64,000 nucleotides of DNA from Lingula anatina (lineage: Eukaryota; Animalia; Brachiopoda). The stretch lies in contig CM120640.1 in assembly GCA_051362555.1 (NCBI GenBank), positions 56,336,788-56,400,787 of the forward strand. The letters are read 5' to 3'. Position 1 is the first letter of the stretch, and each line of letters begins with the position of its first letter. Made by a program: the position numbers and the translations under genes. This document shows, piece by piece, positions 13,914 through 25,602 of this stretch. The notes beneath the pieces were generated by a model. It did not search any database. It worked only from the letters and a program-made list of their open reading frames with translations, and had not been told where the DNA came from.

Positions 13914-16602
13914 ATGGAATGTTTGATAGGTATTCAAGGCAAAGATTTCGTTGTCGTCGCGGCAGATATGAAGTCTGCACGAAGTATACTGACAATGAAA
14001 CACGGTAAGCGTTTAAGTGTCACTGGAATGGCATGCGTAAAGCACCTATGAGGCTAATGGCTTAGTTCCTTTGTGAATTTGGTCGTTGTCAAAATATCGA
14101 ATATCGCAGTGTCTGTAACTATGTACTATAGCACATTTCTGTTTTATGAGTCTGGAAGATTTCTGAAATTTAAATAAAATATCATTCCGATACTCTCTGA
14201 CTCATGAATTAGTGAGGTCAATAACTACATATCTTTAAAAATCCCAACTATTTCATACCTCAATCTTGATTTATCTAGACCAAGACAAGATGTTCCAGTT
14301 AAGTAGCAAACTGATGATGTTAGTCTGTGGGGAATCAGGAGACACAGTACAATTTGCAGAATATATTGCTAAAAATATACAGCTTTATAAAATGAGGAAT
14401 GGTAAGTACATATTTTTTAAAGTTAATCCAATAATTAGCCTTCATCTCCCCTGTTTACTTTTTTTATTAACTGTTAGACTACAATCTAATGGTAAAAGTA
14501 AAGGGAGGGTAAGAGTACTTATCTGTTTACACCCTTACTGTACTGTAGAGCCCTTTCAAGTTTTTCCCATACTCCCAACCATCTCACTATGTCACTCACT
14601 TCTATATTTCAGCAAATAAATGCAATGAATTGATGTGTCAAAAGTAATCAAGTTTACCCCTTTCTGATACCAAATGATTTTCGCACTTTTTGATTGTGAT
14701 AATTTTGAGAAAATCTTTCAGCTTGTTGTTTCACTTCAATCCCTGGCATCCATCTGCCTAGCACAAAATTCATGTTTGATTCTAGCAAACTTAAAATGGA
14801 CAAAACCAGACTAGAAGGTCATTCAGAGAATTAAGGGAAATTGTATTGACTTAACCATGTGTTATAACTGAATACTAGTTCATGAGTGTTTATTTATGTA
14901 CATAATTTTTTTTTCTAAAGATCTTTAGTGATTTAATTTGCTTGTAATGTTTTTTCTTTTCAGGATATGAATTATCACCACATGCCGCAGCTAATTTTAC
15001 AAGGAGAAATTTGGCAGAATATCTCAGGAGTCAGGTATGTAGATGCTGAAATTATGAGAAGTTTGATAGGTATTGTGTTGAAAGATGATGTAATTGTAAT
15101 AGATATTTGTTGAGTTCAGACAATAAGAAAATCTATCTAAAAGCATAATTTTAATCAGTTTCCCTCCATTAAGATATACTTCTACAAAGCAGGGTGTAAT
15201 AAATGTATAGTGAAAAAAAATTAGCATGAGAATTGCACTGTGGATTTTAGTTAATTGATAAAAATTCTTATTATTAATTATAGACTCCATACATGGTGAA
15301 TCTGTTGCTGGCAGGTTTTGACGAAGAAAGTGGACCTGCTCTGTACTACATGGACTACCTGGCCTCCATGAACAAAGTGCCTTTTGCATTACATGGTTAT
15401 GGCTCTTTCTTTGCTCTTAGTATCATGGACAGGTATTACAAAGAAGGTGGGTAGTTATCTCTATTCATGTGCTCCGCATTTGACATATATAAATCAACTA
15501 TTTCATTTCCCTATTTGTGTATTTTTTGTTGTTTATCATCAATTTAGACAAATGAAACGTAAAATAACTTTGTTTTTATTTTGTCATGAAAAAGTTACAC
15601 CCTTTAGTGTATTAAAGTTAAAGACTGAAGGAAGTTGGATATAATTATATTTTCAGATCTCACACAGGAAGATGCAGTAAAGCTTGTACAAAGATGTGTT
15701 AATGAGGTAAATTGATTAAGAGACTGAAAAATTAATTTCAGCAAGTTATAGTGATGCTAAATCATAGGGACATGTAATGATATTTTTTGTTATTTCAAAT
15801 CCTGTGCATCATGGGCTCGAAATAGGACATAACATTTTTGACTTACTTAGCGGATAACAGTTTGTGTCAGATTTATTAAAGGTTGCGCAAAGTCCACATA
15901 ATGACCTGTTAAACGATTTATTCGTCGACGTTAGGTATCTACATATTATAAGTAAAGTCTTTAACTCTCCAAAACTACGTCCGTCTCCATGCTCCGTCTA
16001 TCTCAGTCTCCTTCTCTTCTCCCTTTCTTCTCCCTCTCTCTTCCTCTTGGCTCCCTAAGTATCAGTTCCAATTGCTTATATACTTATATATTTCTTATCT
16101 ATGGTCGATGCACACAAACTTTAATTACTTATAATTGTATAATTAATTTCTTTGCCTCAGCGTTATACAAAGAGGCCACAACATTACCCAAAAACTATTG
16201 GACCACAACACTTTACATCATATGACCTCATAAGATATCTTTTTTTATCTTTATGTTGGACACGACATATTGGCCTCAAAAGATTGTCTGTATCTTCAAA
16301 GACACCTGTAGGGCTTACAAAATTTTTGGGAAATGGCAGGTTGGTTGGTTGGACTTGTTTGGGTTGAACTCCCTGCAAATCGATGACCAAATTACAGATT
16401 CACATTTTGGATTCCCTGTACCCCGAATCTTGGGGAAACAACTGCCTTGGATGAATGATTTCACTTCTTTTGAAGTGTCTTTTGTGTCTTTCAGATCAAC
16501 AAAAGGTTTCTTGTAAATCTACCAGCATTTAAAGTCAGAGTGATCAACAAGGATGGCATTCAAGACCTACCTGATGTGAAACCAGTGCTGTCAACATCTT
16601 AG
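13914..16602 (+). CDS. PSMB2: Proteasome subunit beta type-2 (beta4), 201 aa, 6 exons
   Basis: Exons 13914-14004, 14279-14401, 14964-15034, 15284-15446, 15657-15706, 16495-16602 (606 nt, all GT-AG). [18 protein letters not shown]...[59 protein letters not shown]...[21 protein letters not shown]. Confidence 0.97.
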
Positions 16603-20234: not shown

Positions 20235-23200
20235 ATGGCGGTTAATGTGTACAGCACAAGTGTCACATCAGACAATATGAGCAGAAATGACTTGATAGCC
20301 TGGATAAATGACAGTTTGGATGCCAATTTCTCGAAAATTGAAGAATTGTGTACAGGTAGATAAATATAGTCCATTGTTATTTATTGTTGTATTTTATTTT
20401 TTTTAACCATTTAGATGCAACTTTACCACGTTTCATAAGAATTTCCCTATTCACTGGTCATCCCAACTTATCCACTTGCACTATTGAAGAAATGTGATAT
20501 AGAAAATTTTCTTGCGTAACTTCAGAGTGCTGTTGCTTGACAATTAAATGCCCCCTACACTGGATTCAATGAAAATTACTTTGGTGCATATTATATGTCA
20601 AATGCATCATAACCATTTTATTCTTTTTGGTTTATCAGTGGATTTATGTCCAAAAAGACATGAGCTGTGTTGCCCTTTTTGCTGTTCATAGGCACTGTTG
20701 TCATCCAAATGTATGGTGTCATTGAAGGTCTTGTAAAACAGACAAAATGTAATATAGATATTGATATAACATACACTTCAACTGGTGGATTGATTAAACA
20801 TAGTCATCCTCTTGTTAAATGCACATATTTTGGTCTCTTTATAGGTTCAGCCTATTGTCAATTTATGCACATGCTTTTCCCTGGTAAGTTATTGTTTTAC
20901 TAATTTTTAAAACAAATAATAATTTGACCATTAAAGTGATGGCAACTTTACCAATTTTTCAAAGTTTCACTCCATTTGTAGATTTTCAATGAATGGTAAC
21001 ACCCAAGGGGGAGTTTGTTAGATGTTTATGTTCAGATGCTTATTCAATACCATATGGCGAGTTTAAAAAGTGTGTAGATGCTTTGTTAAAGAGAAAATTG
21101 TAAGTATTGGCCATAGTAACAATATGGTTTTGCAGTTAACTAGCTGACCGCTCCCCTTACAGGCTCTATTTCTTTGAAAAAAGTCAAAATGAACACCAAA
21201 CTGGAGCACGAGAAAATAGCTAACTTCAAGGTGCTACAAGACAGCTTCAGGAAAATGGGGGTAGATAAGGTGGGTTGGAGGGGACCACGAGAGAAACCCC
21301 CAGAGAGAAAGACAAAAAAATTGGAGGTTTTGATTTCTGGTTGCCATTTCATCAATAAATTGGAAATTTGACCTTATGACAGAGATGTTTTCTGAAATGC
21401 TCCAGTTGGCAAAACCTCTAATGCTGATATTGTGTTGTTATGTACATGCAGCTGAAAGTATTGTAAAAAAAACAACCATGGCATTATCTATATTTAATAC
21501 AGTCTGGTTGACATATTTACAATATTATCAGTTATGGAGGGAGAAGAGAGGGAGCACGCTATTGGTACTAACTCCTCTTACAAGAAAGGTTAACACAAGA
21601 GGGACTCCTCTTACTTTCCAAACACTGCTTACTCAAAGTCAAGTGTGGAGTTAGTCAAGTGTGTGGTCCCTCTCTTTGAATCCATGTTTAAACAGCTGAC
21701 TGCCAGTGCAGGATGCATGTCTCAGATCCACTGAGGGGAGGCTTCAGAGGGACATACTCAACTGTTATCCTTTCTGTTCAACTTCTATTGCAGGTTCTAT
21801 TTCCTTAAGAAAAGTCAAAATGAATACAAAATTAGAACATGAGTATATAAATAACTTCAAGACTCTCCAGGCCTCCTTCACCAAAACGGGGGTTGATAAG
21901 GTGAGTGCGGTGTGCACTGGGGAGTGGACTGGGTGACAATGGACACCATCCTTTCTGGACTCTGGACAGTGTGGAAACATTTGTGAGAGACTGGAGTTAT
22001 CCTTAATATTATATATTATAGGCTGTATTTTGGAATTAAAAAAAAGCCAAACAACAGTCATGTTAGCCCCCGCTTTATTATTTTGACACCACCCCATATT
22101 CCATCCTCTTATGCTGGAAGTTTATTAAGCAACAAGTGTATTTTAGGACTTATAATCTAAAATGCATGAATACAACAGAAGCATTGTTCACCTGTATCTA
22201 GGTTCAAAGCATGGGTCCAAGGGATAGATGTCACCAACCCGGTTCAATTTTCTGCCACTGCTTGCCTCACTAAATTGGTGATAATTGTTGTGCACAGTTT
22301 TTCTAATCATTTGTAATAATTTGTTTTTCAGTGCTGTGTCTGCTGTAGTTAGTGCTCAGTAAAGCTTCACTTCTTTTTATGTACAGACACAGATGTGTCT
22401 GTACATATTGCCATCACCCGCGTCTGTCGTCGCCATCGCCGTCGCCGTGCACTTTCAGCGTTAACACCATAAGTGGAAGACAGTTTTGCTTTTTGGCTTT
22501 ATATTTACAGAGCTGATGAATATTCATAAAACACAGGTCAAGTTCGAAAATCAGCATGATCGGGCCATTATTGTAGAATTTATGCTGTTTTTTCACTTTT
22601 CAGCATATATGCAACCTTGTAAACACATTTCAAGGAAAACCGTTAGGCTTGTTGTCACGAAACTCACAGGAGTAATCAATCTTACTAAAACGCAGATCAA
22701 GTTCGAAAATCAGCATGATCGGGCCACTATTTTAGTAGTTATGCTGTTTTTTCACTTTTCAGCATATATGCAACACTGTTAACACATTTCAAGGAAAACC
22801 CATAGGCCTGTTGTCATGAAACTCACAGGAGTAATCAATCTTACTAAAATGCAGGTCAAGTTCGAAAATCAGCATAATCGGACCATTATTTTATAAGTTA
22901 TGCTGTTTTTTCACATTTCCTCAGATTCAATTCTTAAGCATGTTAACAGTCTCATTATTTAATTAATAAGATATGTAAAAGTGTTTGTTTGACATTTCCT
23001 GCATCTTTACAACATTGTTAGTTGATTACTTAAAAATGATGGTAAACTTGTAATCGTGTATTGTGTAATAAAGTTTCAAAAATGGAAATAAACTCATATC
23101 ATTGCAGTTTGTAAGATTCAATCATTCACTATGTTCAGAAACTCAGAATGGAGGAAATTGGACATTAAACACTTTTCTATTGATATTTTTCCCATCTCAT

Positions 23201-25602
23201 CAATTTTCTTAGTTGATCATATATAAATGGCAGTAAATTGTTAATTTTGTTATATGTTAAAAAATTGTTAAAAGTGGAAAAAATAAACACATTTCAGGAC
23301 AGTGCTGTCTTGTTTACATTTTGGCATTTTCAAGTTGTGACTTTGAAGTTCCATGGGCATGAAGACCTTTGCTAGTCACATTTTCTGAATATCCATAATA
23401 CTAATATTTTATTATTAAAAATTGATGGTCATTATGCTGTTAAACGTTATGTAATATTGCATCAAAATTTGGAAAAAAAATATTTTGGGCACTGCTCCCA
23501 TGATGACCATTTAAGAAAAATCATGTCACTTACTGTTCTCAAACTTACAGGAAAGAAACATGGGACTTAAATACAGCTTCAGTAGGCAATGCAGTCTGTT
23601 TGGTAATTCTTTCTGCTAGTTAAAGTTTTTTTTTTTTTTTGTGAAAATTTAATTTTTCACTTATTGGCATTTTCAAGGTGTGACTTTGAAGTTCCATGGG
23701 CTTGAAGACCCATGCTAGTCACATTTTCTGAAAATCCATGATACGTATATTTTATTATTTAAAATTGACGGTCATTATGCTGTTAACCATTATGTAATAT
23801 TGCATCAGAATAAGAGAAAACACAATTTTGGGTGCTGCTGCCATGATGACCATTATGGAAAACCATGTTACTGATGATTGCCAAACGTTCAAAAAAGAAA
23901 TACAGGACTAAAATGCAGCCTGAGTTGGAAGAGCAGTCTAATTGGCTTCTTTTTCTGGAAGTTATACATTTTCAAAGTGTGAACTTGAACTGCCATGGGC
24001 CTGAAGCCTTATGCTTGTTACACATTTTACTTACATTGGTATTACCTGTTGAGCATAATTAAAATTTGATGTTGAATTTGCAGTTTAACATAATGTACTT
24101 TTGCATCAGAATTGACAGTAGCCTATTTTGTGCATAGTTATTTCCGCTTTTTGTCTGTACATTTGACAGCTTTGCTGCCTTGTTGTATTCCCTGTTCCTA
24201 TTTTTACCTTAAGTTTTTTTTTTCTTCTGTATTTTTCAATATGTATCTTGTGACAAAAATTAACATTATGCAGCAAATTGTTCCTTGTATGGGCAGGCTT
24301 TGTTTAGATGTTGCTCGGTTGTTGGTGTTAGCATGTGCTGTAATTTTGCATTAATGTCACAGTCCTATAATATGTGACATAATTGAATGAGGCAAACAAA
24401 ATTTTCCAGGTAGTTGAAATTTTATTTTTGTTAGTATGATAATCTATTATCTTATAGACTAGAAAATAATTTATTACTGCTTAGCACTTTTTTTAATCAG
24501 TGCACCCTGATTTTGTAGAGTTAGTAGTTGCTAATAAAATCCCATGTGAATGCAAGATACAGTATAACCAATTAACAGTTAGTATTTTATGAAACAATGA
24601 CTTCTCTTATAAGTTCTTATTTCTCATTAATACATCTTTGACTTAAAATGTACTTTTTCTTTTTTCTGTGAAACTTTCTAGATTGGTTTTATGAGTGTTT
24701 TAAGTTGTTTTTATGTTAACCTACACGTTGGCTTTTTTTACTATCACAGGCATGAATGCACATTCTCTTAATTTTATTCATTAATGACCTTTTTCATGGA
24801 TATTGTTCTTTCTGGTATAAGCAAGATATAAGAGAGGACAAAAAAATGAAAACTACCTTTTACAGGTCAGGACTTGTCACCTTGTAATGTCATGATGAGA
24901 GGTCTTTGATTACTAAGCAGTATGTTGAAATTACTTTCACTGGAAATTCTACTGTAGTTTAGTTATGAAACTTAAATTCAGCATGTTGGACAAAAAACCT
25001 GCATGTAATGAAATTACTTATTTGAAAGTATATGTCTTTTTATGTACCATAAAAAATAGACATTCTGTGTGTTATAGATCATCCCGGTGGAGAAGCTAGT
25101 CAAGGGTAGGTTTCAAGACAACTTTGAGTTTGTTCAATGGTTTAAGAAGTTTTTTGATGCCAACTATGATGGCCAGGAATATGATGCCCTCAATGAACGT
25201 GGAGGTGAGCCACTAGGTGGTGCAGGAGGAAAAGGTCCAGCAAAAGCCATGCCCAGGTCTATGGCAAGCAGGCCCACAAAACCTGTTGGAGGTAGGATTC
25301 TGTGAAGTAGCAAAATATAATTTGGAATGGTTTAATCTCTGGTCTTTGAAGCAGCTGTCAAGTAAGGGTAAAAGTTGCTATATGACTTCATGACTTGGGG
25401 GTAGGTGACAATATGTAAAAGAGGTTAAGCTGTTCAATCTCAAATTTGCTGCATGTCCTATGAGATGATGAGAGGTTTCCGTTTTCCAAATTTAGGAGTG
25501 CTAGCCTGCCCCAACCCTTTCTCCTGTTAAATACTCATGCAGACACTGACATGTGAAGACCATTGTCAATAAAGATACATTTTATAAAGGAAAAGGCTGT
25601 AT

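What the first reader, a model, noticed from the sequence alone, without database searches (positions are those of the whole stretch)
21277..21675. Competing RNA base-pairing elements between EB1 exons 3A and 3B (docking/selector-like)
Seen: GTGTGGTCCCTCTCT (21661-21675) can pair with AGAGAGGGAGCACGC (21545-21559; 14 of 15 positions counting one G-U). Alternatively it can pair with GGAGGGGACCAC (21277-21288), which starts 7 nt after the 3A donor, or with AGAGGGAC (~21598-21605). These purine-rich blocks stand out in AT-rich introns. Established: competing pairings control mutually exclusive exons in insect Dscam1, 14-3-3zeta and Mhc. Inference: pairing next to the 3A donor could loop out ~375 nt, masking that donor or bringing it too close to the 3B branch point to allow 3A-3B joining.
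Basis: partly seen in the sequence, partly recalled or inferred. Interest (0 to 1): 0.7.

Follow-up and report, generated by a model that had tools for sequence, protein, structure and literature searches.

The report
Swappable EB1 exons with intron hairpin
The gene for the microtubule-tip protein EB1 in a lamp shell carries two either-or copies of one exon, an arrangement shared with molluscs; the intron between them is predicted to fold into a very stable hairpin, but the choice of exon is more likely set by splicing-protein binding sites that relatives keep than by the competing RNA pairings first proposed, which relatives do not keep.

Summary
The gene is brachiopod (Lingula anatina) EB1; exons 3A and 3B rebuild RefSeq isoforms X1 and X2 exactly, and the same swap shows in 7 mollusc clusters. 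Dock/21545 is part of a 154-nt hairpin, more stable than all 798 grid windows of the 64 kb (z -5.7). The donor-side pairing extends over the 3A 5' splice site itself (22 bp, shuffle p 0.01-0.04) but costs about 18 kcal/mol and is predicted only when both other partners are blocked. Four other tandem loci keep no comparable pairing, and a divergent allele shows no compensation. What all five loci keep upstream of 3B is UGCAUG (RBFOX motif; 5 of 5, 0 of 5 before 3A) and ACURAY. RNA reads show 3A dominant, 3B rare, no 3A-3B joint; joining or skipping both gives an early stop. Best reading: an old mutually exclusive pair, likely protein-regulated with NMD clean-up, plus a lineage-specific hairpin of untested role. 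No earlier scan note or paper on it was found.

The parts
20845..20883 (+). Constitutive exon 2 of EB1 (39 nt)
   Evidence: AG/GT ends; spliced reads E1-E2 and E2-3A
21163..21269 (+). Exon 3A (107 nt), CH-domain residues 54-89; major form in the RNA runs laid
   Evidence: Rebuilds P0001 = XP_013405034.1 exactly; E2-3A joints 47, 15, 50 reads
21270..21289 (+). 3A donor plus 'selector A' (core 21277-21288); can pair over all 20 nt with the extended dock
   Evidence: Duplex -30.2 kcal/mol, p 0.01; predicted occupancy 0.000 unless B and C are blocked; 0 differences in the divergent allele
21533..21686 (+). Predicted branched hairpin, about 154 nt, in the intron between 3A and 3B
   Evidence: no Rfam match; one contig only at 85% likeness in DNA run X10
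21533..21559 (+). 'Selector B', 5' arm of the hairpin (core 21545-21559)
   Evidence: Pair probability 0.999 with the dock; one G-U to A-U allele at 21558
21566..21572 (+). TACTAAC, STAR/QKI- and SF1-type motif, predicted paired with 21647-21655 inside the hairpin
   Evidence: Sequence; unpaired probability 0.05; ACTRAY within 300 nt before 3B in 5 of 5 tandem loci
21598..21605 (+). 'Selector C', second-choice partner of the dock, inside the hairpin
   Evidence: 8 of 8 pairs; takes the dock at 0.95 when B is blocked
21661..21688 (+). Dock (core 21661-21675) with its 3' extension; 3' arm of the hairpin
   Evidence: one allele at 21661 breaks the end pair with B
21714..21719 (+). TGCATG, RBFOX-type motif, 80 nt before the 3B acceptor
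   Evidence: Only hexamer shared by the 280-nt stretches before 3B in all 5 tandem loci
21794..21900 (+). Exon 3B (107 nt), tandem copy of 3A; minor form in the RNA runs laid
   Evidence: Rebuilds P0139 = XP_013405035.1 exactly; 3B-E4 in 3 reads of X17 only
21905..21920 (+). Sequence after the 3B donor that can pair with 21703-21718 (overlapping TGCATG) and enclose 3B
   Evidence: Probability 0.9 in one fold but 0.09 with other window ends; p 0.08: unstable prediction
25078..25291 (+). Constitutive exon 4
   Evidence: Joints from 3A in 4 of 4 RNA runs

Best explanation
Exons 3A and 3B are tandem copies of one EB1 exon that are used one at a time; the choice is likely set by RBFOX-type and STAR/QKI-type proteins binding the intron between them, which would favour 3A and hold 3B down, and transcripts with both or neither exon get an early stop and are likely removed by nonsense-mediated decay. 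It would hide the ACUAAC motif and hold the dock away from the 3A donor, so at most it likely tunes the ratio; it is probably not the core switch. Shown: exon pair, frames, isoform records, junction counts, motif conservation. Predicted: all structures. Inferred: protein binding, direction of regulation, decay.
For: Both isoforms rebuilt exactly from the window. The same 36-residue swap in 8 of 10 clusters looked up: Lingula, Mya, Patella, Pomacea, Biomphalaria, Crassostrea virginica, Saccostrea, Sinanodonta; not in Priapulus or Tribolium. Two genomic copies in 4 of 80 metagenome loci and in gene models of Lamellibrachia and Brachionus. Residue 83 is T/A in the 3' copy and K/R/N in the 5' copy in 6 of 6 ordered pairs, K in 7 of 7 comparison proteins; same-order identity beats cross-order in 13 of 15 pairs. 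TGCATG 80-199 nt before 3B in 5 of 5 tandem loci, 0 of 5 before 3A, joint shuffle chance 6.5e-5; ACTRAY 5 of 5, chance 9e-4. GCAUG downstream of an exon usually enhances and upstream represses it (PMC11874969, passages); QKI represses exons through ACUAA (PMC13004596, abstract). 3A dominates and no 3A-3B joint is listed in 3 of 3 RNA runs. Both or neither exon stops translation 554 or 430 nt before the last junction; in C. elegans 14 of 19 non-3n clusters lean on NMD (PMC4165533, passages).
Against: The motifs were noticed after looking; the chance that any hexamer is shared by all five stretches is 0.063, and TGCATG is common in some of these loci (5 of 15 and 5 of 19 tiles). At least two of the four loci are close to Mya and so not independent. 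No binding or knock-down data; tissues of the RNA runs are not known. No E2-3B joint reached 3 reads, so 3B use rests on RefSeq-type models and 3 reads. The tree of 35 columns does not resolve one origin. PMC11874969 itself reports that upstream repression is not a clean rule. The hairpin is far stronger than chance and the dock's match to the donor is not trivial, which this reading explains only as a later addition.
Confidence: 0.55

Rival explanations
1. A decoy-gated RNA switch runs exon choice in Lingula: by default B (then C) holds the dock and the 3A donor is free; when a protein covers the purine-rich B and C elements, the dock would pair over the 3A donor and 3B would be used.
For: The dock pairs with intron bases +1 to +20 of the 3A donor; with B and C blocked this pairing reaches 0.9 and donor accessibility falls from 0.49 to 0.16; the default state predicts 3A dominance, as seen; the A duplex is unchanged in the divergent allele (-30.5 vs -30.3), and the alleles at 21558 and 21604 keep pairing with the dock.
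Against: 18 kcal/mol penalty and two elements to be blocked at once; no equivalent in four other tandem loci; no compensatory pair, and differences in B and dock are as dense as in the intron (2 in 54 nt vs 13 in 524); the donor is transcribed 390 nt before the dock, so U1 could bind first (inference).
Confidence: 0.2
2. The hairpin is a neutral relic (local duplication and inversion, or a decayed small transposon) and the extra complementarities are by-products of its purine-rich repeats.
For: Internal direct repeats (11 nt identical at 21571 and 21604); an allele breaks a central pair of the inner stem and the hairpin loses 8 kcal/mol; no drop in polymorphism; all four splice sites find partners in this intron at p 0.02-0.09, as blocky composition would give; L001 has an unrelated strong stem with transposon-like ends.
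Against: Single contig at 85% likeness, so no recent repeat family; the sense strand folds 10 kcal/mol better than the antisense; a second partner of the same 27-nt arm falls exactly on a splice donor.
Confidence: 0.2
3. The hairpin is a small stable intronic RNA processed from the intron, unrelated to exon choice.
For: Sense-strand depth in X17 peaks at 9-10 over 21542-21647 against 3-5 on either side.
Against: No Rfam match at E<=5; no pile-up of read ends; about ten reads in one run; absent from X14.
Confidence: 0.05

Closest known systems
Docking site/selector pairing in insect Dscam1, 14-3-3zeta, Mhc, MRP1 (PMC6071210, introduction and passages read)
   Same: One element complementary to several others in a gene with tandem mutually exclusive exons.
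   Different: There the dock lies outside the cluster, each exon has a selector, pairing loops out exons, and elements are conserved. Here dock and all partners lie between the two exons, no exon is looped out, one partner wins by 18 kcal/mol, and conservation was not found.
Human ATE1 exons 7a/7b, R1/R3/R4 competing helices (PMC7797038, passages read)
   Same: Two exons; two elements compete for one; pairing works by covering a splice site. Closest in logic to the rival reading.
   Different: In ATE1 both competitors overlap splice sites (3' sites), are conserved and were proven by compensatory mutants. Here one competitor covers a 5' site, the other two cover no splice site, and nothing is proven.
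C. elegans RBFOX/STAR-regulated exon pairs egl-15 5B/5A, let-2 9/10, unc-32 7a/7b (PMC4165533, passages read)
   Same: Two-exon clusters with UGCAUG or STAR sites in flanking introns; fidelity helped by NMD when exons are not 3n.
   Different: Those were shown genetically; here only motif conservation. Different gene, and the site lies in the intervening intron before the second exon.
Distant-branch-point steric pairs such as OGDH 4a/4b (PMC7969005, passages read)
   Same: A branch-point-like TACTAAC far upstream of the second exon.
   Different: It lies 297 nt from the 3A donor and many AGs follow it (last AG-free stretch only 46 nt), so no steric block and no AG exclusion zone.

Membership tests
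Tandem-duplicated mutually exclusive exons | Homologous adjacent exons of equal length and phase with canonical splice sites | tested here: met
   107 nt each, same phase, AG/GT ends, 76% DNA identity
Tandem-duplicated mutually exclusive exons | Each exon used alone; joined form absent | tested here: inconclusive
   3A alone well shown; 3B-E4 in 3 reads, no E2-3B joint at 3 reads; no 3A-3B joint; RefSeq X2 has 3B
Tandem-duplicated mutually exclusive exons | Pair kept in relatives | tested here: met
   8 of 10 clusters, 4 of 80 loci
Docking site/selector system | One dock complementary to several selectors | tested here: met
Docking site/selector system | Dock in a flanking intron, a selector for each exon, pairing loops out exons | tested here: not met
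   All elements in 21270-21688; the partner after 3B (-17.3) has predicted occupancy <=0.001
Docking site/selector system | Alternative pairings of comparable stability | tested here: not met
   Ensemble penalty 18.5 (A) and 16.9 (C) kcal/mol
Docking site/selector system | Conservation with compensatory changes | tested here: inconclusive
   Not found in four distant loci nor in one divergent allele; no genome of a close relative was available
Docking site/selector system | Disruptive and compensatory mutants change and restore exon choice | not testable with these tools
   Needs a minigene
RBFOX/STAR-regulated exon pair | Conserved UGCAUG and ACUAAY-type motifs near the exons | tested here: met
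   5 of 5 tandem loci
RBFOX/STAR-regulated exon pair | Protein binding and a splicing change on its loss | not testable with these tools
   Needs CLIP or knock-down
Steric (distant branch point) pair | Branch point within ~50 nt of the upstream donor with a long AG-free zone | tested here: not met
   TACTAAC 297 nt from the donor; AGs up to 46 nt before the acceptor
Known structured RNA family | Rfam match | tested here: not met
   0 matches in 20300-25100 at E<=5

The most novel reading that the evidence does not exclude
A decoy-gated RNA switch in a brachiopod: a central intronic arm that can seal the 3A splice donor is parked in a hairpin by two decoys and released by a protein, layered on an RBFOX/QKI-controlled EB1 exon pair shared across molluscs, annelids and brachiopods. 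That would be a new geometry of competing pairing and a switch between two microtubule-binding domains of EB1.
Probability: 0.2. Interest if true: 0.68.

Novelty: new member of a known kind. Interest (0 to 1): 0.42.

Why it matters
EB1 is the hub of microtubule tip tracking and the swapped exon encodes residues 54-89 of its microtubule-binding CH domain (PMC3368265 passages for the domain's role). An old either-or pair with a consistent charge change at residue 83 and a conserved RBFOX motif suggests a tissue-specific EB1 in a large part of the animal tree; the literature searches run found no description. The pair sits in databases as isoform models, so it is undescribed rather than unseen. 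If the hairpin switch were real it would add a spiralian case and a new geometry to RNA-structure control of splicing; on present evidence that is the minority reading.

Tried and rejected
No whole genome is held, so copy number of the hairpin could be judged only from run X10. Rfam: nothing. No RNA holder listed by the index; raw-read runs were laid instead. Short-protein search for exon 3B: nothing. Viral contigs: nothing. A first sliding fold (150 nt, step 40) missed even the Lingula hairpin and was replaced by a local-fold test: Lingula 0 of 100 shuffles as low, L001 0, L007 2, L033 10, L028 19, L019 42, L026 47. The L001 stem shares the 9-mer GTGGTCCCT with the dock; rejected as homology because some dock 9-mer turns up in the four shuffled introns 9% of the time, the same 9-mer occurs in L022, L028/L036 and elsewhere in L033, its best partners are not at the 3A donor, and its ends resemble a Tc1/pogo-type miniature element (recalled). 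A by-eye dock with selectors after both donors in L026 did not pass shuffling (p 0.08 and 0.24; 0.34 and 0.33). A-to-I editing in the hairpin: no A>G difference in RNA that is not also in DNA run X10, at depth 10 or less. Which CH residues touch tubulin was not resolved. Earlier scan notes: none on this place or protein; 8 notes on other duplicated exons did not bear on it.

Full report
What the locus is. The finding lies in an EB1 (RP/EB family) gene on the + strand. The top protein hit is named Lingula anatina RP/EB isoform X1, and its cluster holds one other member, isoform X2. Joining the window's exons with 3A (21163-21269) or 3B (21794-21900) reproduces these two proteins exactly. The exons are 107 nt each, in the same phase, 76% alike, differ at 7 residues and encode residues 54-89 of the CH domain. 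Using both or neither gives a stop 554 or 430 nt before the last junction.

The observation. The four strings and their pairings are as stated. The dock/B pairing is the base of a branched hairpin, 21533-21686, with pair probabilities near 1 in four different folding windows. It is more stable than all 798 grid windows of the 64 kb and than 500 of 500 shuffles. C is an ordinary 8-9 bp match. A caution: this intron is built of purine- and pyrimidine-rich blocks, and all four splice sites find partners in it at p 0.02-0.09.

Do the pairings compete? Not on equal terms. Forcing A costs 18.5 and C 16.9 kcal/mol of ensemble energy. Free, B holds the dock at 0.999; with B blocked C takes it at 0.95; only with B and C blocked does A reach 0.9, and donor accessibility then falls from 0.49 to 0.16. 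The layout also differs from the insect model, in which the dock lies outside the cluster and pairing loops out exons (PMC6071210, introduction and passages; PMC4691838, passages). The nearer precedent is ATE1, where competing helices cover splice sites (PMC7797038, passages). The steric idea fails on distance (PMC7969005, passages).

RNA. In three runs laid on 20800-22365 (6, 6 and 30 in 100 of each run read), E2-3A joints number 47, 15 and 50 and 3A-E4 reads 41, 15 and 39; 3B-E4 shows in 3 reads of X17 only; neither E2-3B nor 3A-3B reached the 3-read listing threshold. 3A-E4 joints were seen in 4 of 4 runs. So 3A is the main form in these samples and 3B is rare; tissues are not known.

Alleles. 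DNA run X10, largely matched by RNA run X22, differs at 13 places in the 524-nt intron. A has none in 20 nt; B has one that turns G-U into A-U; the dock has one that breaks the end pair; C has one that keeps pairing with the dock; the inner stem has one that breaks a central pair. No change is compensated, density is not reduced in B or the dock, and the hairpin weakens from -64.3 to -56.3 while B still wins. One allele gives little power either way.

Relatives. The same 36-residue swap appears in 8 of 10 clusters looked up (Lingula and seven mollusc clusters; not Priapulus, Tribolium), and both copies in tandem in Lamellibrachia and Brachionus models. Of 80 metagenome loci kept (of 193 confirmed), 4 hold two genomic copies: L001, L019, L026, L033, with introns of 2800, 952, 567 and 1406 nt; many others are transcripts or short, and several show a single copy between E2 and E4. 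Residue 83 separates 5' from 3' copies in 6 of 6 ordered pairs, which fits one old duplication, though the tree does not resolve it. In the four loci, 1 of 16 splice-site pairing tests reached p<0.05, a strong local stem was found only in L001, and shared words with the Lingula intron are at chance level. These loci are very distant, so this shows that the pairing is not an ancestral part of the pair, not that it is idle in Lingula.

What is conserved. TGCATG lies 80-199 nt before 3B in 5 of 5 tandem loci and in 0 of 5 before 3A; it is the only hexamer common to all five stretches (any-hexamer chance 0.063; named-motif shuffle chance 6.5e-5). ACTRAY is there in 5 of 5 (2 of 5 before 3A). Among 16 single-hit loci TGCATG is upstream in 2, one of them inside coding sequence. 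In L019, L033 and L007 the two motifs are adjacent. These are the RBFOX and STAR/QKI motifs (PMC11874969, passages; PMC13004596, abstract), and both families control two-exon clusters in C. elegans, where NMD also backs up non-3n clusters (PMC4165533, passages). A site after 3A and before 3B would, by the usual positional rule, favour 3A, as observed.

Verdict. A real and old mutually exclusive exon pair, likely protein-regulated with NMD clean-up (0.55); a Lingula-specific RNA switch (0.2), a neutral hairpin (0.2) or an intronic RNA (0.05) remain open. Searches for EB1/MAPRE1 or Lingula with mutually exclusive exons found no description (listings only; the library lacks most subscription papers). 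New member of a known kind; interest 0.42.

Noticed in passing
P0022-P0039, P0042; L022:4218-4905; L064:2540-4161: Arthropod EB1 gene models and two genomic loci carry two copies of the next exon (exon 4 equivalent) instead of exon 3: an apparently independent duplication in the same CH domain.
   Followed up: partly
window 22374-24184: High-copy, heavily transcribed repeat with 158-nt tandem units in the intron after 3B; read depth in the hundreds to over a thousand.
   Followed up: no
window 21807-22365: Poly(A) run X14 has sense reads at depth 1-8 running through the 3B donor unspliced, with none at 21277-21806; possibly an intron-ending transcript or 3'-biased pre-mRNA.
   Followed up: no
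window 21144-21158 with 21006-21021 or 21731-21747: The 3A branch-point/pyrimidine tract has two alternative partners of equal strength (-20.9, -21.1 kcal/mol), an ATE1-like layout; p 0.09 for the downstream one.
   Followed up: partly
window 21769-21792 with 21530-21553: The 3B pyrimidine tract can pair with element B (-20.8 kcal/mol, p 0.02, one of 20 tests).
   Followed up: partly
L008, L039-L047 group; L015-L018: These loci show only one exon 3 between E2 and E4 (L015-L018 by combining contigs), so the pair is absent from some lineages with the same intron positions.
   Followed up: partly
window 21831: Run X10 has a K-to-N change in 3B while 3A has no difference; one contig only.
   Followed up: no
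L019, L026, L033, L007 after the 3' copy: The 3B donor reads GTAGGTGG or GTAGGTAG in these four loci, while the 3A donors of L001, L019, L026 and L033 read GTGAG.
   Followed up: no
window 15284-15454: An exon resembling a proteasome beta subunit (label recalled) lies upstream on the same strand.
   Followed up: no
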